A stretch of 64,000 nucleotides of DNA from a bacterium (GTDB lineage Bacteria > Patescibacteriota > Minisyncoccia > Moranbacterales > UBA9337). The stretch lies in the NCBI GenBank assembly GCA_021159185.1, contig JAGGSH010000011.1, positions 12,307 through 76,306 on the forward strand. The letters are read 5' to 3'. The notes under the pieces were generated by a model that was not told where the DNA came from, did no database searches, and saw nothing but the letters and a program-made list of their open reading frames with translations. Numbering within the stretch: the stretch's first letter is position 1; every line of letters starts with the position of its first letter. This document shows positions 14,669-56,699 of the stretch, one piece after another. The position numbers and the translations under genes were made by a program.

Positions 14669-14787
14669 ATTCCAAAAAGCCAAAGAAACTTTAATAAGAC
14701 TTTAAAAGCTTCTGTAAATTTCTTGCTATAGCAAGAAATTTACCAATCTATTTTAATTTTTAAGTTTCGCAATTAAATGAATAAAAA

Positions 14788-20321: not shown

Positions 20322-22154
20322 TTATGAATTATGGCTTATAGCTTCACCCACCAACTTATCAAACTCTTCTTTTTCAATAGTTTCTTTTTTCAGCAAAGTC
20401 TCGGCGATTTTATTTAAAATCCCCCTTTTTTCATTAATAATTTTTTCCGCAGTTTGCCTGGCCTCTTCAAGAAAGCGGGAAACTTCCATGTCAATTTCCA
20501 AAGCGGTTTGCTCTGAGTAATCTTTTTCTTCGCTAATTTCCTTTCCTAGAAAAACTAACTCTTCTTTCTTGCCGAAAGTTCTGGGACCGAGCCGGCTCAT
20601 TCCATAACGAGTAATAAGATTTCTGGCCATGTGAGTGGCTCTTTCCAGATCGTTAGACGCGCCCGTAGTTATATCACTGAACACGATTTTTTCGCTCACA
20701 TATCCTCCCAGCAAGATAGCCAGCTCATCAATAAAATAAGCTCTGGACTGGAGATACTTGTCTTCAGTGGGAACAGCCATAGTATATCCTCCCGCCTTGC
20801 CGCGGGAAATAATGGAAACTTTTTGAATCGGGTCGGCGTGAGAAAGGCTGGCGGTTACCAAAGCGTGTCCGGCTTCGTGATAAGCCACTATTTTCTTCTC
20901 TTCTTTACTCATTATTTTACTTTTGCGTTCCGGCCCCATAATAACTTTTTCAATAGATTCTTTTAACTCTTTTATTCCTATAGTTTTTTTCTCCCGGCGC
21001 GCGCTAAGTATAGCCGCTTCATTAACAAGATTGGCCAAATCCGCTCCGGAAAAACCGGGAGTGCGTTGAGCAATAACTTTTAGCTCCACTCCTTTTCTTA
21101 AGGGTTTGTTCTTGGCGTGAATTCTAAGAATGGCTTCTCTCTCCTTAATATCGGGAAGATCTATAACCACTCTTCTGTCAAACCTTCCCGGACGCAAAAG
21201 CGCTGGATCTAAAACATCGGGGCGGTTAGTGGCTGCCATTACAATTACATTAGTGTCAGTTTCAAATCCATCCATTTCCACCAAAATTTGATTTAAGGTT
21301 TGTTCTCGTTCGTCATGTCCGCCGCCCAGACCGGCTCCGCGATGCCGCCCCACCGCGTCAATTTCATCAATAAATACGATAGACGGAGCGTTTTTTTTGG
21401 CCTTCTTGAAAAGATCGCGCACGCGGGAAGCTCCCACGCCCACAAACATTTCCACAAACTCGGATCCGCTGATATTAAAGAATGGAACTTCAGCCTCTCC
21501 CGCTACTGCTTTCGCCATTAAAGTTTTTCCCGTTCCCGGCGGTCCCAATAAAAGCACGCCCTTGGGAATTTTAGCGCCGACAGCCAGAAATTTTTTGGGA
21601 TGTTTTAAAAATTCAACGACTTCCAATAATTCTTCCTTAGCTTCTTTAGCTCCAGCAACATCTTTAAAGGTAGTTTTCTTCTTTTTGTCTTTGGGGTCGG
21701 TCATTCTAGCGCGGCTCATCCCGAAAGAGAGCGCTTGAGTATTCCCTCTTTGAGCTTGGCGCATCATAAACCAGATAAATCCGGCAATTAAAATGAATGG
21801 CAGTAAAAATGGCAAAATAAGCCCCGCCCAAACGGCGGCGGAAGATTCTTTCTTTACCTCAACTTTTACGCCTTTGAGTTTTTCTTTATCCACGCCGTAA
21901 TTATCCAACGATTCGCCTAGAGAACTTTCCATTTCTTTGCTTGTTTTTTCTTTTTCTCCATTATTAAGTTCAATTTTCAGCTCATTTCCCTCAATAATAA
22001 TTTCTTTTACTGCTCCCTCATTTATCTGGCTAACCAACTGGCTTAATGAGGTATCTTCATATTTCTGGGCGGGCGCGTTATAAAGCACCAGTATTCCCGA
22101 AACAAACAAAAAAAACAAAATAATTAATCCTATATTTTTTAATAATTTATCCAT
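20322..22154 (-). CDS. ftsH: ATP-dependent zinc metalloprotease FtsH
   Basis: Two N-terminal TM, Walker [19 protein letters not shown], a second region of homology, and the HEAGHALV zinc motif. Confidence 0.95.
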
Positions 22155-22244: not shown

Positions 22245-23306
22245 CTACATTTTCACTACGCTCACTTTATCACCTTTCTTTTCTATTTTCAACCCTTTGA
22301 ATTCTATTCTTTGAATTTTACTTTTTTTACTTTCAATTATTTTAATAATTTCTTCAATGTGGCAGGTCTCAATGTCGGTTAAATCTGCTCTGATCTGAAA
22401 AATCATCTGGCGCAAAACTTGCCTTTGCATTGCCGGATGTAATTTTTGAAATTTTCCCGCGCTAAAAATAATTTTATCCGTCTTAGTCGCATTTATTTGT
22501 TTAATCATTCGCTTCCCATTCGCGGACAAGCAATCATAATCGTCAGCGACAATCAGCGACATATTAGCTAAAGTTTTTTTAATATTAGGATTGTAATTTT
22601 TTTCCAGATAAGGAATTAACCGATGGCGGATTTTATTGCGGGAGATCTTAATATCTTTATTGGTAATGTCAGTTTGATATTTTAATTTATTTTCTTTAAG
22701 ATATTCTAAAATTTCTTTTCGGCTTGTATTTAACAACGGACGAATAATAATATTCTCCCCCTCCCCTTTGGGGAGAGGGCTGGGGTGAGGGGTTTTCGGT
22801 CTCATAACTGCCAACCCTTGCAATCCTGCTCCTCGCAAAACCCGCATCAAAACCGTTTCGGCTTGGTCGTCCCGATTATGCGCCACCGCGATTAAATTAT
22901 ATTTTTTTCTTTTCCTAATTTTCTCAAAAAAATCATACCGAATCTCCCGCAACCAATTCTCCAAATTCTCCCCCTTTGGAAAAGGGGGGTTAGGGGGGAT
23001 TTGAAAAACCTTCGCATTCTCGTAAATTTTATTTTTCGCAATACTTAAAACGCTAACCCCCAACTCGTACTTTCCTGCCAACTCTCTCACAAACTCCTCA
23101 TCCCTATCCGAATCCTTTCCCCGCAAACCGTAATTCACATGGGCAATGTATAATTTAAAATTATATTTAGGCGCCAGCTTTACCAAAATATCCAAAAGAC
23201 AGGCGCTGTCCGGCCCGCCCGAAACACCGACAATAATCCTTGAGCCTTCCTCCCAAAGCCCATACCGCCCGGAAAAACTTTGAATTTTTTTAACCAAACT
23301 TTTCAT
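22245..23306 (-). CDS. tilS: tRNA(Ile)-lysidine synthetase TilS with two in-frame repeat-derived insertions
   Basis: PP-loop IIVGVSGGPDSACLLDIL and HNRDDQAETVLMRVLRGAGLQGLAVMRP. The inserted segments IPPNPPFPKGENLENW and KTPHPSPLPKGEGENII are encoded by family-2 repeats at 22965-23012 and 22741-22800. Confidence 0.85.
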   Translation of the reverse strand: MKSLVKKIQSFSGRYGLWEEGSRIIVGVSGGPDSACLLDILVKLAPKYNFKLYIAHVNYGLRGKDSDRDEEFVRELAGKYELGVSVLSIAKNKIYENAKVFQIPPNPPFPKGENLENWLREIRYDFFEKIRKRKKYNLIAVAHNRDDQAETVLMRVLRGAGLQGLAVMRPKTPHPSPLPKGEGENIIIRPLLNTSRKEILEYLKENKLKYQTDITNKDIKISRNKIRHRLIPYLEKNYNPNIKKTLANMSLIVADDYDCLSANGKRMIKQINATKTDKIIFSAGKFQKLHPAMQRQVLRQMIFQIRADLTDIETCHIEEIIKIIESKKSKIQRIEFKGLKIEKKGDKVSVVKM

Positions 23307-23430
23307 TTTGTGTTTTTTCTATCTACCGCTACTGCGCGATCGCGCAGTAGCGGTAGATAGAATTAAGCCGGATAAGTTAATTTTAGAGGCATCTATAGAT
23401 GCCTCTATTCTCTATTTTAAATCTCTGATT

Positions 23431-23991
23431 TTATTTCAGATCGTTTTTGATAATCTTTGCCACTTTTAAAACTGTTTCATCTAACTTTCCCTCTTCATTC
23501 TCCACGCTATAATCAAAAGCGTTTTTGTTTTTCGTCCAGCCTTGGGCGTACTTTATTCTTTTTTGTATAAATTTTTCCGAAACTCTGCCTCTGTTTCTGA
23601 TCCTTTTTTCAATAATATCCAAAGGAGCGTTAATCAATATGGCTGGTATTTCCGGCATCATTTTTTTCAGGTTCAGCACTCCCTTATAATCAACTTTCCA
23701 GATGACAATCTTTTCACTATTTCTGGCGCGCTTAATTTCTTTATGAGTCACGCCGTAAAAATTATTATTGTCTTCTTCCGCCCATTCAAAAAAATCCCCG
23801 TTCTTTACGCCTTTTTTAAATTCTTCTTTGGGAATGAAATAATAAGGCCGGCCTTGGGATTCTCCCGGGCGCATTTCCCGCGTGGTAGTGGTGATAACCC
23901 TTTCAATGTCAAGATATTTTTTCAATCCTTTAATGACGGAATCTTCCCCCGCGCCGGACGGACCGGAAATGATAAAAACGTTGGATTTCAT
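23431..23991 (-). CDS. gmk: Guanylate kinase homolog with a degenerate P-loop (GPSGAGEDS instead of GxSGxGKxT)
   Basis: ITTTTREMRPGESQGRPYYFI and FFEWAEEDNNNFYGVT align with the GMK GMP-binding region, but the Walker-A Lys and Ser/Thr are replaced by Glu and Asp. Confidence 0.7.
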   Translation of the reverse strand: MKSNVFIISGPSGAGEDSVIKGLKKYLDIERVITTTTREMRPGESQGRPYYFIPKEEFKKGVKNGDFFEWAEEDNNNFYGVTHKEIKRARNSEKIVIWKVDYKGVLNLKKMMPEIPAILINAPLDIIEKRIRNRGRVSEKFIQKRIKYAQGWTKNKNAFDYSVENEEGKLDETVLKVAKIIKNDLK

Positions 23992-24075: not shown

Positions 24076-24618
24076 TTGTATATGTATAACCTTGAAAAAA
24101 ATACTTTTAAACAAAATTACAATGCGTATGATAACGCATATGTAAAAAATAGCAGTGAGAAAATCTGGGAAAAATTTAAAAAAGGACTAAATAATGAAAA
24201 AGAGAAGAAGTTAACGGAATTTGAAAAAGAAATAAAAAAGGGGGTGCCGTTTGAAGATGCTGACGATGTAGTGGAAGAAGTAAGAAGAATTGTTCCCCCT
24301 ATATTGTCCGTTCCCAAGAAATACTTTAATAAGATAAAAAGCAAAGGTTTTATAGAGCCGAAGCCGGACTGGACTGGATATAGATCAGTAGCGGCTGTAT
24401 TGGGAAGATCCCCCTATACTCCAAAAAATGAAGAAAGGATTTATTTTAAATTAAGCCCTCAAGTTAAGGTTGAACCTAGGTTTATGCCTAAAAATAAAAT
24501 AAGGAAAACAACAAGCGAACTAAATAAAGATGACGCGATGTTTTACGGAGTAGTTCTTGTTTCAGACGATCAAAAACGGCTTCGTTTAGGACATGACTTA
24601 AAACAAATCAGCAATTAA
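24076..24618 (+). CDS. Hypothetical protein (180 aa)
   Basis: ORF in AT-rich host-like codon usage with no recognised motif. Confidence 0.4.
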   Translation: MYMYNLEKNTFKQNYNAYDNAYVKNSSEKIWEKFKKGLNNEKEKKLTEFEKEIKKGVPFEDADDVVEEVRRIVPPILSVPKKYFNKIKSKGFIEPKPDWTGYRSVAAVLGRSPYTPKNEERIYFKLSPQVKVEPRFMPKNKIRKTTSELNKDDAMFYGVVLVSDDQKRLRLGHDLKQISN

Positions 24619-24640: not shown

Positions 24641-26158
24641 TTACTTAGCGCTTTTTTTATTTTTTTCTGGCTTTGCTAGATCTGGCGTAGCCAGACTTTT
24701 CTTTTCTCCTGCCTTTTTCTCTATGACTTTCTTTACTTTTTTCTTTTCCTCTTTCTTTCTTGCTTTCTTACTTACTGCCTGTTGCTTATCGCTTACTTCT
24801 TTATGCTTACTTTCTGCTTCTTTCTTCTTACTGCTCTTATCTTTAACCAGCGCCAATCCCATCCTATGATTTTTCGGCTCTATAGAAAGAATTTTCCATT
24901 GGTAGGATTCGCCTTCTTTTATCACATCGTCCATTCTTTTGCCGGGATACATTTCCTGAAACTCGCTCACATGCGCCAGTCCGTGTATGTTTTTGTCCAG
25001 ATATACAAAAACTCCGAAGCGGTTAATTTTATCCACTTTGCCTTTCACAACATTGCCTGTCTCATATTTCTTTTCAATATTTTCCCATGGGTCTTTTTCC
25101 AGCGCTTTTAAAGAAAGAGAAACGCGCATGTTATTAATTCCAATAATCTGGGCCTTAACTATGTCTCCTTTTTTTATAACCTCTCTTGGGTCATTAATTA
25201 ATTGCCATGCTAATTCTGAAATATGCACCAGCCCCTCCAGTTTATCATCTTCTTTGCCTGAATCTTTTTTGGATGGAGGAAAAAATTTCACAAAAGCTCC
25301 GAAGTCTACTACTCCGCTCACTTCGCCCTCAACGATATCCCCCGCTTTCATTTTGGCGACAGTTTCTTTCTCTTCACTGCTCATAACCGCTTTCTCGCTA
25401 ACAATCAGTTTTTCCTCATCCCTGTCAGCGCTGATGATTTTTACTTTGAGCTCGCGGCCGATTAAATTTTTAAGCATTTCCAAAATTCTGCTCTTGCTCC
25501 CGTCTTCCACGCGGGGATAATTTTTGCTGGATAACTGGGACACGGGCAAAAAGCTTGATATTCCGTTAATTTCAACTATTAATCCTCCTCTGTTAGCGTC
25601 AAGCACTTTCGTAATAATTGTTTTTTGGGCGTCTCTTTTGTATTCTATGTCTTCCCAAGCTTTTTCATAAGAAGCTTCTCTAACGGAAAGTTCCATATAA
25701 CCGCTTTCATCTCCTAAACTAGTTAAAGTCGCGCTGACCGTATCGCCTTCTTTTATTTTCCCGTCAATATTCAATCCGTCTTTCATTTCTTTTCCTAAAA
25801 CTATTCCTGTTCCCAATGGGCCTAAATCAAGCAAGATATAGCTAGAGGAAATTTCAATCACCTTTCCTTCCAAAACATCTCCCACTTCCGGAATTTCTAT
25901 AGGATTCTCTTTCAGTAATTCTTCCATAGAAAGTTCATTTTTCCCTTTCTTGCCTGCCTGCCGGCGAGGCAGGCTTTTTTCAGACGAGCTTTTTTTTACT
26001 TTTACTTTTACTTTTACTTTCTTTTTCTTTATGCTTGTTTCTTGCTTCTTTTTCCTTCCCAGTTCTCGCTTCTCGCTTACTTCTTTTTTCTTCCCGCTTA
26101 TTTCTATTTTATCCACCTCTTCCGCCAGTTTGTCTAAAATGTTTTTTTTGCCAGCCAT
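24641..26158 (-). CDS. rpsA: 30S ribosomal protein S1-like, multiple S1 domains with Lys-rich terminal extensions
   Basis: Four or more S1 repeats (GDVLEGKVIEIS..., GDIVEGEVSGVVDFGAFV, GDIVKAQIIGIN..., GNVVKGKVDKINRFGVFV). The N-terminal region contains an in-frame 27-bp GC hairpin repeat. Confidence 0.8.
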   Translation of the reverse strand: MAGKKNILDKLAEEVDKIEISGKKKEVSEKRELGRKKKQETSIKKKKVKVKVKVKKSSSEKSLPRRQAGKKGKNELSMEELLKENPIEIPEVGDVLEGKVIEISSSYILLDLGPLGTGIVLGKEMKDGLNIDGKIKEGDTVSATLTSLGDESGYMELSVREASYEKAWEDIEYKRDAQKTIITKVLDANRGGLIVEINGISSFLPVSQLSSKNYPRVEDGSKSRILEMLKNLIGRELKVKIISADRDEEKLIVSEKAVMSSEEKETVAKMKAGDIVEGEVSGVVDFGAFVKFFPPSKKDSGKEDDKLEGLVHISELAWQLINDPREVIKKGDIVKAQIIGINNMRVSLSLKALEKDPWENIEKKYETGNVVKGKVDKINRFGVFVYLDKNIHGLAHVSEFQEMYPGKRMDDVIKEGESYQWKILSIEPKNHRMGLALVKDKSSKKKEAESKHKEVSDKQQAVSKKARKKEEKKKVKKVIEKKAGEKKSLATPDLAKPEKNKKSAK

Positions 26159-30175: not shown

Positions 30176-30274
30176 ATTCAGATGCGTCTGAAAAAGTTGT
30201 AAAAAACAACAAAAGTTTCAAGTACACTTGAAACTTTTGAAGAATTGAAAAAGTATAATTGGTGAGCTGTTTTA

Positions 30275-46308: not shown

Positions 46309-46421
46309 ATAAAAGTACATAACCATAAAGATAAAACAATCGTTTATTTTTAATGGTTTTTTTATAATAAAGTATCTACGAACGATTTATTTAAAATGTC
46401 TTACTAAAAAACAAATCAAAT

Positions 46422-46437
46422 TGTTCCACGTGGAACA
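46422..46437. promoter_or_regulatory. Palindromic site TGTTCCACGTGGAACA (copy 5 of 6)
   Basis: Perfect palindrome. Confidence 0.55.
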
Positions 46438-46520
46438 ATTTGATGTATATAATGTAATCAATAGTGACATATTGCCTTTTTAAACCTCTTTTGGATTATA
46501 TTTTTTGTGATTTACCATGA

Positions 46521-47772: not shown

Positions 47773-47810
47773 CTTCATATAATATACAAATATTTGTATA
47801 TTATATGAAG
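47773..47810. repeat. Perfect 38-bp palindrome (cttcatataatatacaaat|atttgtatattatatgaag) just upstream of the integrase gene
   Basis: The 19-bp arms are exact reverse complements. Candidate recombinase core/arm site or operator. Confidence 0.5.
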
Positions 47811-51099: not shown

Positions 51100-51175
51100 A
51101 AATCTTTTTTTATTTGCCACTAAGTTACGATCGTGAGCTAATGGTAAATTGAACAATATCTAATTAGAGGCGGAA

Positions 51176-51208
51176 TTAAAAACTACAGAGTTAACTCTGT
51201 AGTTTTTA
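51176..51208. terminator. Bidirectional rho-independent terminator (aaaaactacagag ttaa ctctgtagttttt)
   Basis: Perfect 12-bp stem between the convergent rbr and rnpA genes. Confidence 0.65.
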
Positions 51209-51547
51209 ATTTAGTAAATTTATTTCTCCGGCAATTCCCAATATTTCTTTTTCTATTTCTTGATAATTTTTTTCCGTAATTCCCGGGTGGCAGACTATAA
51301 CTACATCCAGTCCGTTTTTAATATCGCTTAAATTTGATTGGATGATTTCTCTGGCTTGTCGCTTGATTTTATTTCTAACCACCGCTTTAGGGGAAACTTT
51401 TTTGGAAACGATAAAACCGAACCGGGAATTTCCCAAGTTGTTTTTAGCGAATTTTATTCCCAGAATTTTAGCGTGCCGCCCTTGCCCGAATTTAAAGACT
51501 TTTTCAAAATCTTTTTTGCCGGTAAGGCGGTATTTTTTTGGAAGCAT
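51206..51547 (-). CDS. rnpA: Ribonuclease P protein component
   Basis: 113 aa, MLPKKYRL...SRFGFIVSKKVSPKAVVRNKIKRQAREII, the RnpA signature. Confidence 0.8.
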   Translation of the reverse strand: MLPKKYRLTGKKDFEKVFKFGQGRHAKILGIKFAKNNLGNSRFGFIVSKKVSPKAVVRNKIKRQAREIIQSNLSDIKNGLDVVIVCHPGITEKNYQEIEKEILGIAGEINLLN

Positions 51548-55762: not shown

Positions 55763-56668
55763 TCACCGCTTTCTGTGAAATTTTTGATAAACTCCTTCCA
55801 AGCGACGGTTAGTTATATGGGTGTAAATTTGGGTGGTGGTGATAGACGAATGCCCCAGCATTTCTTGGACACTGCGGATATCGGCGCCGTTGGCCAATAA
55901 ATCAGTGGCAAAAGTGTGGCGTAAAGTATGCGGATGGACATTTTTTATAATCCCGGCTTTAATCGCGTATTCTTTCACTATTCTTTGGACGCTTCTGGGC
56001 GTTAATCTTAAATCAGCGTCTTTGGGAATTTTTTTCACAACGCGGACGAATAATGCCGGGTCAGTGTCTATTCTCTCTTCAAGATATTTTCTTATCGCTT
56101 CTTTGGCTGTGTCGGAGATAAAAACAATTCTGGTTTTTCTGCCTTTTCCCTTAACGCTAAAATTTTGCTTTTCCAGATTGATTTTATCCCGGTCTATATT
56201 TACCAGCTCCGAAACGCGCAGGCCGGCTGAAAAAAGAAGCTCCAAAATGGCGCGGTCGCGCAAAGATTTTAAATCCGTTCCATTGGCTGAATTCAAAAGG
56301 CGATCCACTTCTTCCGGCTCCAAGAATTCCACTTCGCGTTGCGAACTTTTCCCTATTTCCACTTTTTCCGCTGAAAGCGTTTCAATGTCCTGCTTCGCCA
56401 AATATTTTAAAAACCCGCGGAGAACGATGACATAATTATTTTGAGTAACTTGTTTTAAGCAATTTCCCTTTGCGTCTTGGCGGCGGTTAAGGTAAAGTCG
56501 GTACTTTTTTACCAAGCCTAAATCAATATCGCCGGGATTTTTAATTTTAGACCAATTTAAAAAATAAATTAAACAGCGATGATAATTTTCCACTGTTTTG
56601 GGTGAGCGGCTTAATTCAATTTCCAGATGCTCTAAAAATTCTATGAGAAGAGTTTTGATGTTTGACAT
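55763..56668 (-). CDS. Tyrosine recombinase, XerC/XerD-like
   Basis: N-terminal SAM-like core-binding domain. LRDRAILELLFSAGLRVSELVNI...HTLRHTFATDLLANGADIRSVQEMLGHSSITTTQIYTHI. Confidence 0.8.
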   Translation of the reverse strand: MSNIKTLLIEFLEHLEIELSRSPKTVENYHRCLIYFLNWSKIKNPGDIDLGLVKKYRLYLNRRQDAKGNCLKQVTQNNYVIVLRGFLKYLAKQDIETLSAEKVEIGKSSQREVEFLEPEEVDRLLNSANGTDLKSLRDRAILELLFSAGLRVSELVNIDRDKINLEKQNFSVKGKGRKTRIVFISDTAKEAIRKYLEERIDTDPALFVRVVKKIPKDADLRLTPRSVQRIVKEYAIKAGIIKNVHPHTLRHTFATDLLANGADIRSVQEMLGHSSITTTQIYTHITNRRLEGVYQKFHRKR

Positions 56669-56699
56669 ATTTCTATGAAGGATCTCTACGAATTACTTT

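What the first reader, a model, noticed from the sequence alone, without database searches (positions are those of the whole stretch)
23431..23991. Guanylate kinase homolog lacking the Walker-A lysine (GPSGAGEDS)
The protein aligns with the GMK GMP-binding region (TTTREMRPGE..G..YYFI, F.EWAE). Its P-loop reads SGAGEDS instead of SGxGK(S/T). The Lys to Glu and Ser to Asp changes required two independent codon changes (gaa gat), so a single sequencing error is unlikely. Loss of the P-loop Lys is the hallmark of non-catalytic GK domains such as MAGUKs. Either this reduced genome has a second functional gmk, or this enzyme uses an unusual mechanism or is a regulatory GK-like protein.
Basis: seen in the sequence. 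Interest (0 to 1): 0.5.

Follow-up and report, generated by a model that had tools for sequence, protein, structure and literature searches.

The report
Guanylate kinase lacking the P-loop lysine
This is the normal housekeeping guanylate kinase gene of a Moranbacteria-type ultra-small bacterium, belonging to a large, strongly conserved clade that has swapped the supposedly indispensable P-loop lysine for glutamate or glutamine while keeping every other substrate-binding residue, so it probably still works by a rewired active site, though nobody has tested that.

Summary
Window 23431-23991 (-) encodes a 186-aa guanylate-kinase-fold protein with P-loop GPSGAGEDS.

- **Not an error or a one-off.** The 120 closest database clusters all read G(E/Q)D(S/T). 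At least 227 species genomes (Moranbacteria, Falkow-, Magasanik-, Kerfeld-, Parcubacteria) carry the motif. Both synonymous codons are used for E and D, and dN/dS is about 0.05-0.13.
- **Ser-to-Asp is not part of the loss.** Asp after the Walker residue is an older variant that covaries with Lys/Arg at residue 99 (0/88 without Asp, 29/48 with it). It also occurs in lysine-retaining kinases of Chloroflexota and Patescibacteria.
- **Residue 99 is a cation site.** It aligns with human D101, which binds K+ and, through water, Mg2+.
- **The rest of the active site is intact.** All GMP-site, LID-arginine and adenine-contact residues are invariant. This is unlike MAGUK domains.
- **It is the ortholog, not a paralog.** Lysine-retaining Moranbacteria genes sit in the same S1-gmk-tilS-ftsH slot.

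Best reading (about 0.55): a still-functional GMP kinase in which Lys99, with Ser12, Asp17 and Glu16, compensates for the missing lysine. A non-catalytic GMP-binding protein remains possible. I could not check whole genomes for a second gmk. These proteins score below the TIGR03263 cut-off, which may explain reports of missing gmk in Parcubacteria.

The parts
23431..23991 (-). Guanylate-kinase-fold gene (186 aa) of the lysine-less G(E/Q)DS clade
   Evidence: ORF. Pfam PF00625 E 4.9e-32. TIGR03263 147.6 bits, below the 160.45 cut-off. AlphaFold2 mean pLDDT 94.5. TM-score 0.90 to E. coli Gmk-GDP 2an9.
23938..23964 (-). P-loop GPSGAGEDS (residues 10-18). E16 replaces the Walker-A lysine (human K17), D17 replaces the Mg-binding Ser (human S18), and S12 corresponds to human S13.
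   Evidence: Sequence read. Alignments. In the clade, residue 16 is E 89-94% and Q 5-10%, D17 is 100%, S12 is 98-100%.
23836..23892 (-). GMP-binding segment T34-F52 (TTTTR38..R41..E44..Y50.F52)
   Evidence: R38, R41, Y50 and F52 are 100% conserved in the clade and T34 is 95-96%. They map to human S37, R41, R44 and Y53 (roles from PMC12297293).
23695..23700 (-). W98-K99 at the end of strand beta3. K99 takes the place of human D101, the ligand of K+ and, through water, of Mg2+.
   Evidence: Codons tgg aaa read. Strand 95-99 in the model. W98 is 97-100% and K99 97-98% in the clade. Covariation of K/R99 with Asp17: 29/48 against 0/88, Fisher 3e-17. Role of D101.
23557..23604 (-). LID segment with R130, R134 and R145 (human R133, R137, R148)
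   Evidence: All three are 100% conserved in the clade. Roles: adenine cation-pi contact and gamma-phosphate / transition-state contacts.
23536..23550 (-). Y148 and W152 in the helix after the LID. These are clade-specific; canonical enzymes have Glu at 152 in about 75% of cases.
   Evidence: No E/Q-type protein keeps Glu152, whereas the lysine-retaining sister clade also has W152.
22245..23306 (-). tilS (PP-loop ATPase), immediately downstream; part of the conserved gene order
   Evidence: Pfam ATP_bind_3 5.2e-51. Downstream on the same strand in 31 of 86 loci examined (85 fetched plus the window). Same arrangement next to lysine-retaining orthologs.
20322..22154 (-). ftsH, downstream of tilS; part of the conserved gene order
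   Evidence: ORF. Downstream on the same strand in 37 of 86 loci. FtsH domains at the same place in L086 and L088.
24641..26158 (-). Multi-S1-domain protein (rpsA-like), upstream on the same strand; part of the conserved gene order
   Evidence: Pfam S1, 5 stretches, 7.6e-36. Upstream on the same strand in 35 of 86 loci.

Best explanation
The gene is the vertically inherited housekeeping guanylate kinase (gmk) of a Moranbacteria-type patescibacterium. It is a member of a large clade whose phosphoryl-donor site has been rewired.

**Order of changes (inferred).**
- Step 1, shared with Chloroflexota. The acid that holds Mg2+ through water and K+ directly (human D101) moved from strand beta3 to the P-loop, so the Ser after the Walker lysine became Asp17. 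Strand beta3 acquired Lys/Arg99. Its charged group sits where the monovalent cation binds in human and mouse GMPK.
- Step 2, within Patescibacteria. Trp98, Tyr148 and Trp152 were fixed.
- Step 3, one to three events. The Walker-A lysine became Glu or Gln.

**Proposed mechanism (inferred, not shown).** The protein still binds GMP and an adenine nucleotide and still transfers phosphate. Lys99, together with Ser12 and the LID arginines, supplies the positive charge and hydrogen bonds at the gamma-phosphate. Asp17, and possibly Glu/Gln16, ligate Mg2+ or a second cation.

**Shown here.**
- Presence and conservation of the motif.
- The Asp17 / Lys-Arg99 covariation.
- Full retention of the other substrate-contact residues.
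- Purifying selection on the gene.
- Orthology by gene order with lysine-retaining gmk.
For: 1. **Fold and family.** Pfam match over the full length, high-confidence model, and TM-score 0.90 to E. coli Gmk.
2. **Contact residues kept.** Every residue that PMC12297293 shows contacting GMP, ATP or the transition state in human GMPK is 96-100% conserved in the clade, apart from K17. These are S12, S18, T34, R38, R41, Y50, E69, Y79, R130, R134, R145 and N165.
3. **The P-loop is constrained.** It is itself almost invariant, including E/Q16. Both synonymous codons are used. dN/dS is 0.05-0.13.
4. **Covariation.** All 21 E/Q-D domains among the 50%-identity representatives have Lys/Arg99. Among lysine-retaining domains Lys/Arg99 occurs only when the next residue is Asp: 29/48 against 0/88. 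The Asp plus Lys/Arg type is annotated as guanylate kinase in Chloroflexota and Dehalococcoidia.
5. **Position 99 is a cation site.** It aligns with human D101, the K+ ligand. A lysine standing in for K+ has a precedent in K+-independent pyruvate kinases (PMC4374775).
6. **Orthology by gene order.** Lysine-retaining Moranbacteria genes (GKDA/WK and GKDS/WR, about 65% identical to the lysine-retaining query P0131) lie in the same S1-gmk-tilS-ftsH slot. Only 2-3 K/E switches are needed on NJ trees.
7. **Reciprocal differences between the sister clades.** The E/Q type has Ser12 (98-100%) and Lys99. The K type has Ala12 (97%) and mostly Arg99. This reads as compensation.
8. **No second copy nearby.** None in the 64-kb window. 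Only one in 1.25 Mb of related loci.
Against: - No biochemical data exist for any member of this clade.
- In human GMPK the K17A mutant has no detectable activity. An acidic side chain beside the phosphates should be unfavourable unless a cation bridges it.
- I could not inspect coordinates of the model, so the reach of Lys99 to the gamma-phosphate is inferred only from the D101/K+/Mg geometry described in PMC12297293.
- Some Patescibacteria (class Microgenomatia, strain OT8) are reported to lack Gmk entirely and are proposed to obtain NDPs directly by PNPase cleavage of RNA. GMP kinase activity may therefore not be essential in this phylum, which leaves room for a change of function.
- Whole genomes were not searched for a second gmk.
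Confidence: 0.55

Rival explanations
1. It is a catalytically dead guanylate-kinase-fold protein that still binds GMP (and perhaps a nucleotide) and acts as a sensor, regulator or binding module. GDP would be supplied another way, for example by PNPase phosphorolysis of RNA.
For: - The Walker-A lysine is essential in the human enzyme: K17A has no detectable activity.
- Gmk is reported absent from Microgenomatia, including the cultivated strain OT8, where PNPase is proposed to yield NDPs.
- A PNPase gene lies about 10 kb from the orthologous locus in Moranbacteria.
- Some clade members are fused to a NUDIX domain, an S1 domain, or a transmembrane helix followed by an unknown domain.
Against: - A binding-only role does not explain 100% conservation of the three LID arginines, the adenine contacts R130 and N165, Ser12, Asp17 and the whole glycine scaffold.
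- It does not explain the specific pairing with Lys99.
- It does not explain the near-identical active site in the lysine-retaining orthologs.
- MAGUK-type inactivation looks different: degraded P-loop, hinge Ser to Pro, fusion partners.
- The gene sits in translation and housekeeping operons.
Confidence: 0.25
2. It is an active phosphotransferase whose donor or metal requirement has changed. Possibilities are a second divalent or monovalent cation held by Glu16 and Asp17, or a donor other than Mg-ATP. The acceptor GMP would be unchanged.
For: - The donor side is where all the clade-specific changes cluster: E/Q16, D17, W98, K99, Y102, K103, Y148 and W152. The GMP side is canonical.
- Glu/Gln interchange at residue 16 fits a metal ligand or hydrogen-bond role better than a charge role.
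Against: - The adenine contacts R130 and N165 are invariant, which points to an adenine nucleotide as in ordinary enzymes.
- The lysine-retaining sister clade shares W98, Y148 and W152, so those changes are not tied to loss of the lysine.
Confidence: 0.12
3. It is an extra paralog, and a canonical gmk elsewhere in the genome does the real work.
For: - Whole genomes could not be searched.
- One related locus (L053) carries a second, divergent guanylate-kinase-like gene in tandem.
- One metagenome-assembled genome has two E-type copies on different contigs (L038 and L079).
Against: - The gene occupies the same slot as the lysine-retaining gmk of sister Moranbacteria.
- There is no second homolog in the window.
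- 84 of the 85 fetched loci (about 1.25 Mb in total) have no second homolog.
- The L053 paralog has a degraded GMP site.
- A marker-gene survey found gmk 'poorly represented' in Parcubacteria (PMC4508563). That would not be expected if a canonical copy were present.
Confidence: 0.07
4. It is a sequencing or assembly error, or a decaying pseudogene.
For: None found.
Against: - The motif is shared by the 120 best clusters and by 227 genome loci.
- Synonymous codons vary for both residues.
- dN/dS is 0.05-0.13.
- The ORF is intact and the structural model is confident.
Confidence: 0.01

Closest known systems
Canonical bacterial and eukaryotic guanylate kinase (Gmk/GMPK, EC 2.7.4.8; Pfam PF00625, TIGR03263), for example E. 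coli Gmk (2an9) and human GMPK (6nui, 9jab)
   Same: - Same fold (TM-score 0.90) and same length.
- Same GMP-binding residues, LID arginines, adenine contacts and P-loop glycine scaffold.
- Housekeeping genomic context.
   Different: - The Walker-A Lys is Glu or Gln.
- The Mg-binding Ser/Thr is Asp.
- The beta3 acid (human D101) is Lys.
- The acidic residue after the LID (position 152) is Trp.
- The score falls below the TIGR03263 equivalog cut-off.
Lysine-retaining Asp/Lys-Arg variant of Gmk in Chloroflexota and Patescibacteria (GKD[AST] with [KR] at position 99), including the Moranbacteria sister clade GPAGSGKDS/WR
   Same: - Asp17 and Lys/Arg99.
- In the Moranbacteria sister clade also W98, Y148, W152 and K103.
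- Same S1-gmk-tilS-ftsH slot.
   Different: - The sister clade keeps Lys16.
- It has Ala12 instead of Ser12 and Ser14 instead of Ala14.
- It mostly has Arg rather than Lys at position 99.
MAGUK guanylate-kinase-like domains (PSD-95/Dlg, CASK, MPP) and the Ca-channel beta subunit
   Same: Guanylate-kinase fold without a working Walker-A lysine. Weak sequence matches (E 1e-7 to 1e-4).
   Different: - MAGUK domains have lost the P-loop as a whole, along with catalytic and LID residues.
- They carry the hinge Ser-to-Pro type change and bind phosphopeptides.
- They are fused to PDZ and SH3 domains and are eukaryotic.
- None of this applies here.
K+-independent pyruvate kinases (Lys117 in place of Glu117)
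   Same: The concept is the same: a lysine side chain takes the place of the acid that binds the monovalent cation, so the protein carries its own cation (PMC4374775).
   Different: Unrelated fold and reaction. In the present case the substitution is inferred from alignment only.
WNK ('with no lysine') protein kinases
   Same: The concept is the same: an invariant catalytic lysine is missing from its usual motif and its role is taken by a lysine on a neighbouring element (my own knowledge, not tested here).
   Different: Different fold (protein kinase, not P-loop). In WNK the relocation has been shown structurally and biochemically; here it is a hypothesis.

Membership tests
Guanylate kinase (Gmk, EC 2.7.4.8) | Guanylate-kinase fold and domain over the full length | tested here: met
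   PF00625 E 4.9e-32, residues 3-183. AlphaFold2 mean pLDDT 94.5. Foldseek TM-score 0.88-0.90 to E. coli Gmk.
Guanylate kinase (Gmk, EC 2.7.4.8) | Score above the curated equivalog cut-off (TIGR03263, 160.45 bits) | tested here: not met
   147.6 bits for the window protein. 8 of 9 E/Q-type proteins tested, and 2 lysine-retaining sisters, are also below the cut-off.
Guanylate kinase (Gmk, EC 2.7.4.8) | GMP-binding residues (human S37, R41, R44, Y53, E72, Y81, D103) | tested here: met
   T34, R38, R41, Y50, E69, Y79 and D101 are present. Apart from residue 101 they are 95-100% conserved in the clade; residue 101 is always acidic, D or E.
Guanylate kinase (Gmk, EC 2.7.4.8) | Donor-site residues other than the lysine (human S13, T19, R133, R137, R148, N171) | tested here: met
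   S12, S18, R130, R134, R145 and N165 are present and 97-100% conserved.
Guanylate kinase (Gmk, EC 2.7.4.8) | Walker-A lysine (GxxGxGK) | tested here: not met
   Glu16 in the window protein. In the clade the residue is E 89-94% and Q 5-10%.
Guanylate kinase (Gmk, EC 2.7.4.8) | ATP:GMP phosphotransferase activity | not testable with these tools
   Needs an enzyme assay or genetic complementation.
Guanylate kinase (Gmk, EC 2.7.4.8) | Orthology with the housekeeping gmk of related genomes | tested here: met
   Lysine-retaining Moranbacteria genes P0336 and P0334 lie in the same S1-gmk-tilS-ftsH arrangement as the window gene.
MAGUK-type non-catalytic GK domain | Degenerate P-loop and loss of LID and catalytic residues | tested here: not met
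   Only the lysine is changed. The glycines, Ser12, Ser18 and all LID arginines are conserved.
MAGUK-type non-catalytic GK domain | Hinge Ser-to-Pro type change that blocks closure (human S37P is inactive; PDB 4f4j) | tested here: not met
   Thr34 is at this position, 95-96% conserved.
MAGUK-type non-catalytic GK domain | Fusion to PDZ and SH3 modules; eukaryotic origin | tested here: not met
   A stand-alone 186-aa bacterial protein.
Asp17 / Lys-Arg99 variant of Gmk (Chloroflexota and Patescibacteria) | Asp directly after the Walker position together with Lys/Arg at the end of strand beta3 | tested here: met
   D17 and K99 in the window protein. Covariation 29/48 against 0/88. Chloroflexota examples.

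The most novel reading that the evidence does not exclude
A whole clade of essential nucleoside-monophosphate kinases catalyses phosphoryl transfer without the Walker-A lysine. A lysine on strand beta3 sits in the ancestral K+ site and takes over its role, while Glu16 and Asp17 hold the metal. That would be a P-loop counterpart of the WNK kinases. Nature has also supplied a control: lysine-retaining orthologs in the same gene slot.
Probability: 0.45. Interest if true: 0.75.

Novelty: new variant of a known kind. Interest (0 to 1): 0.55.

Why it matters
- **A test of a textbook rule.** The Walker-A lysine is treated as indispensable in P-loop kinases. A large clade of apparently sole, housekeeping guanylate kinases under strong purifying selection carries Glu or Gln there instead. 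This gives a directly testable case of active-site rewiring. The controls exist in nature: sister orthologs that keep the lysine, and Chloroflexota enzymes that have only the Asp/Lys swap.
- **A practical annotation point.** These proteins score below the TIGR03263 cut-off and are often named 'hypothetical protein'. This may account for at least some reports that gmk is poorly represented in Parcubacteria, and it affects metabolic reconstructions of GTP supply in Patescibacteria.
- **If the protein proves inactive.** That would support the idea that these organisms obtain GDP by another route, such as RNA phosphorolysis.

Tried and rejected
- **Error or pseudogene:** rejected on conservation, codon usage and dN/dS.
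- **MAGUK-like dead domain:** rejected as a membership claim because the defining features are not met.
- **Second gmk in the window:** none found with phmmer against all six-frame ORFs.
- **Second gmk near related loci:** only L053 has one, a divergent tandem paralog with a degraded GMP site. A genome-wide check was not possible: only one scan of genome contigs is allowed and flanks are limited to 10 kb.
- **Taxonomy by cluster look-up:** gave few names.
- **First NJ tree on sparse representatives:** it suggested many K/E switches. Denser sampling with the key sites masked reduced this to 2-3. The rooting, and therefore the direction of change, remains uncertain.
- **Literature searches:** four searches, pairing guanylate kinase with candidate phyla radiation, Patescibacteria, Walker A, Parcubacteria and related class names, or P-loop-lysine and inactivity terms, found no description of this variant.
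- **Fusion partners and the neighbouring ORF 24076-24618:** Pfam gave no functional lead.

Full report
**1. The observation**

Window 23431-23991 on the minus strand is an intact ATG-to-stop ORF of 186 aa beginning MKSNVFIISGPSGAGEDSVIKGL. It matches Pfam Guanylate_kin over its full length (E 4.9e-32). Its best solved relatives are true guanylate kinases from bacteria, yeast and mammals (E about 1e-24), with MAGUK domains far behind at 1e-7 to 1e-4. BLASTP against human GMPK places E16 on K17, D17 on S18, S12 on S13, T34 on S37, K99 on D101, R130/R134/R145 on R133/R137/R148 and N165 on N171.

**2. Not an error, not a one-off**

A search of 5.8 billion clustered proteins gave 1818 homologs with E no higher than 1e-5. 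All of the best 120 carry G(E/Q)D(S/T): 112 EDS, 7 QDS and 1 EDT.

A scan of one genome per species (185,579 species) with the peptide pattern [ILV]I[ST]GPSG[ASV]G[EQ] found 257 stretches, of which 227 encode a relative. Titled records are Moranbacteria/Moraniibacteriota, Falkowbacteria, Magasanikbacteria, Parcubacteria and 'Patescibacteria group'. A GQDT form occurs in Kerfeldbacteria.

In 85 genes (84 fetched loci plus the window gene) Glu16 is encoded by GAA 54 times and GAG 27 times; Asp17 by GAT 49 times and GAC 36 times. Pairwise dN/dS is 0.05-0.13. The AlphaFold2 model is confident (mean pLDDT 94.5) and superposes on E. coli Gmk-GDP with TM-score 0.90.

**3. What is and is not unusual**

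An exhaustive HMMER search of 1.84 billion 50%-identity representatives (17,775 hits) let me read the key positions in the best 150.

The residue after the Walker lysine is variable in ordinary guanylate kinases: S, T, G, N or D. Asp there is common, and it covaries with Lys/Arg at query position 99, the last residue of strand beta3. Among lysine-retaining domains, Lys/Arg99 occurs in 29 of 48 with Asp and in 0 of 88 without (Fisher 3e-17). Shared ancestry inflates this number, so it is not a true probability. All 21 E/Q-D domains have Lys/Arg99.

Lysine-retaining examples of the Asp plus Lys/Arg type are annotated as guanylate kinase in Chloroflexota and Dehalococcoidia.

PMC12297293 explains what is being swapped. 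In human GMPK:
- S18 ligates Mg2+ directly.
- D101 holds Mg2+ through water and ligates a K+ ion together with S37.
- K17, S13, R44, R137 and R148 contact the transferring phosphate.
- K17A and S18A have no detectable activity.
- R133 and N171 bind adenine.

Thus Asp17 moves the metal-holding carboxylate onto the P-loop, and Lys/Arg99 puts a protein cation at the K+ site. This is the same logic as Lys117 in K+-independent pyruvate kinases (PMC4374775).

**4. The clade-specific package**

I compared 137 E/Q-type sequences with 76 canonical ones. The conserved, clade-specific residues are E/Q16, D17, W98, K99, Y102, K103, Y148 and W152; canonical enzymes have Glu at 152 in about 75% of cases.

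Every other substrate-contact residue is 96-100% conserved: S12, S18, R38, R41, Y50, E69, Y79, R130, R134, R145 and N165. T34 is 95-96%. This is the opposite of a decaying site and unlike MAGUK domains.

Intermediates exist:
- K16 + D17 + K/R99 + E152 in many lineages.
- K16 + D17 + W98 + K/R99 + W/Y152.
- E/Q16 with the same background.

No E/Q-type sequence keeps Glu152.

**5. Orthology**

In 86 loci examined (85 fetched plus the window), the gene sits in one of two housekeeping arrangements:
- S1-protein, gmk, tilS, ftsH, as in the window: 31-37 loci.
- RluD-like pseudouridine synthase, gmk, rplS: 34-39 loci.

A search with the closest lysine-retaining relative (P0131) revealed a sister clade (GPAGSGKDS/WR, GKDA/WK and similar), several members of which are labelled Moranbacteria. 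Two of these, P0336 and P0334, lie in exactly the same S1-gmk-tilS-ftsH slot. The E-type gene is therefore the positional ortholog of an ordinary-looking gmk, not an extra paralog.

On NJ trees of 169 sequences, with the ten diagnostic sites masked, only 2-3 K/E-Q switches are needed (15 bootstrap replicates). With a Chloroflexota root the lysine-retaining clade nests inside the E/Q grade. This could mean a reversion or a rooting artefact.

The two sister clades differ reciprocally in the P-loop:
- E/Q type: Ser12 (98-100%), Ala14, Lys99.
- K type: Ala12 (97%), Ser14, mostly Arg99.

Ser12 corresponds to human S13, whose hydroxyl turns toward the transferring phosphate in the transition-state complex. 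I read this as compensation.

**6. Second gmk**

There is no other guanylate-kinase homolog in the 64-kb window. In 1.25 Mb of related loci only L053 has one: a tandem paralog with GVGKKE and a degraded GMP site.

A genome-wide check was not possible with the tools. Indirect evidence comes from the literature and from family cut-offs:
- A marker-gene survey found gmk 'poorly represented' in Parcubacteria (PMC4508563).
- The window protein and 8 of 9 E/Q-type proteins tested score below the TIGR03263 cut-off.
- NCBI names many of them 'hypothetical protein'.

So the 'missing' gmk could well be this gene.

**7. Mechanism**

The best-supported reading (confidence about 0.55) is a still-functional ATP:GMP phosphotransferase with a rewired donor site. 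Asp17, and possibly Glu/Gln16, would ligate the metal. Lys99 in the former K+ site, together with Ser12 and the LID arginines, would stabilise the gamma-phosphate.

- **Shown:** the residues, their conservation, the covariation and the orthology.
- **Inferred:** the contacts and the activity.

The main rival (0.25) is a non-catalytic GMP-binding protein. It is made plausible by the absence of activity in human K17A. It is also made plausible by reports that some Patescibacteria (Microgenomatia, strain OT8) lack Gmk and are proposed to obtain NDPs from RNA through PNPase. Smaller rivals are an altered donor or metal requirement (0.12) and a spare paralog (0.07). An artefact is excluded.

**8. 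Novelty**

Four full-text searches found no description of this variant. They paired guanylate kinase with candidate phyla radiation, with Patescibacteria and Walker A, with Parcubacteria/Moranbacteria/Paceibacteria, and with P-loop, lysine, 'catalytically inactive' and 'bacterial'. It is a new variant of a known enzyme family. It is moderately to quite interesting for P-loop enzymology, and it is useful for annotation of Patescibacteria.

Noticed in passing
window 23317-23362 and 23384-23407: Two perfect palindromes (46 bp and 24 bp, no loop) fill most of the 124-bp gap between the gmk-like stop and the tilS start. In related loci the median gap to tilS is 4 bp, and in some the two called genes overlap. 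Other long perfect palindromes lie at 51174-51211, 47773-47810, 46415-46444, 14714-14743 and 30210-30239. They could be terminators or protein-binding sites.
   Followed up: partly
window 24076-24618 (+): A 180-aa ORF with no Pfam match lies on the opposite strand between the S1 gene and the gmk-like gene. In the two lysine-retaining loci whose called genes were listed (L086, L088) that gap is only 57-58 bp; the median across 35 loci is 94.5 bp measured on stop-to-stop ORFs. This looks like an insertion.
   Followed up: partly
L053 2123-2692 (+): A tandem second guanylate-kinase-like gene lies directly after a GSGQDS-type gene. It keeps a P-loop lysine (GPQGVGKKE), but residues of the GMP site are changed (for example no Glu69 equivalent). 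Pfam E 1.7e-19.
   Followed up: partly
proteins P0123, P0125, P0127, P0126, P0130: Fusions of the lysine-less domain. Three 50%-identity representatives carry a transmembrane helix plus an unknown domain of about 200 aa at the C-terminus. One has a C-terminal NUDIX domain and one an N-terminal S1 domain. They may be real architectures or merged gene calls.
   Followed up: partly
L010, L017, L022, L024, L034, L037 and other loci; P0340: Metagenome-assembled genomes titled Gammaproteobacteria, Bdellovibrionales, Lysobacteraceae or Undibacterium carry this Patescibacteria-type gene, including a 1.23-Mb 'chromosome' (OZ246405.1). The organism labels are probably wrong.
   Followed up: no
L038 and L079 (contigs JAGLIN010000150.1 and JAGLIN010000057.1): One genome bin (Candidatus Parcubacteria isolate RS_2_6) holds two different E-type copies on two contigs. 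This is either a true duplication or a mixed bin.
   Followed up: no
L086 1-79 and L088 1-801: A polynucleotide phosphorylase gene lies about 10 kb upstream of the gmk slot in the lysine-retaining Moranbacteria loci. This is relevant to the proposal that Patescibacteria make NDPs from RNA (bioRxiv 10.64898/2026.06.21.733656).
   Followed up: no
window 22245-23306 (-), TilS protein residues about 100-190: The TilS protein contains two similar proline-rich stretches, PPNPPFPKGENLENW and PHPSPLPKGEGENIII, inside the PP-loop domain region. They could be a lineage-specific insertion or an internal repeat.
   Followed up: no
window 55766-56692 (-): A tyrosine recombinase (Phage_integrase, E 8.6e-45) lies in the window not far from UvrD and RecQ helicase genes. 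It could be XerC/D or a marker of a mobile element.
   Followed up: no
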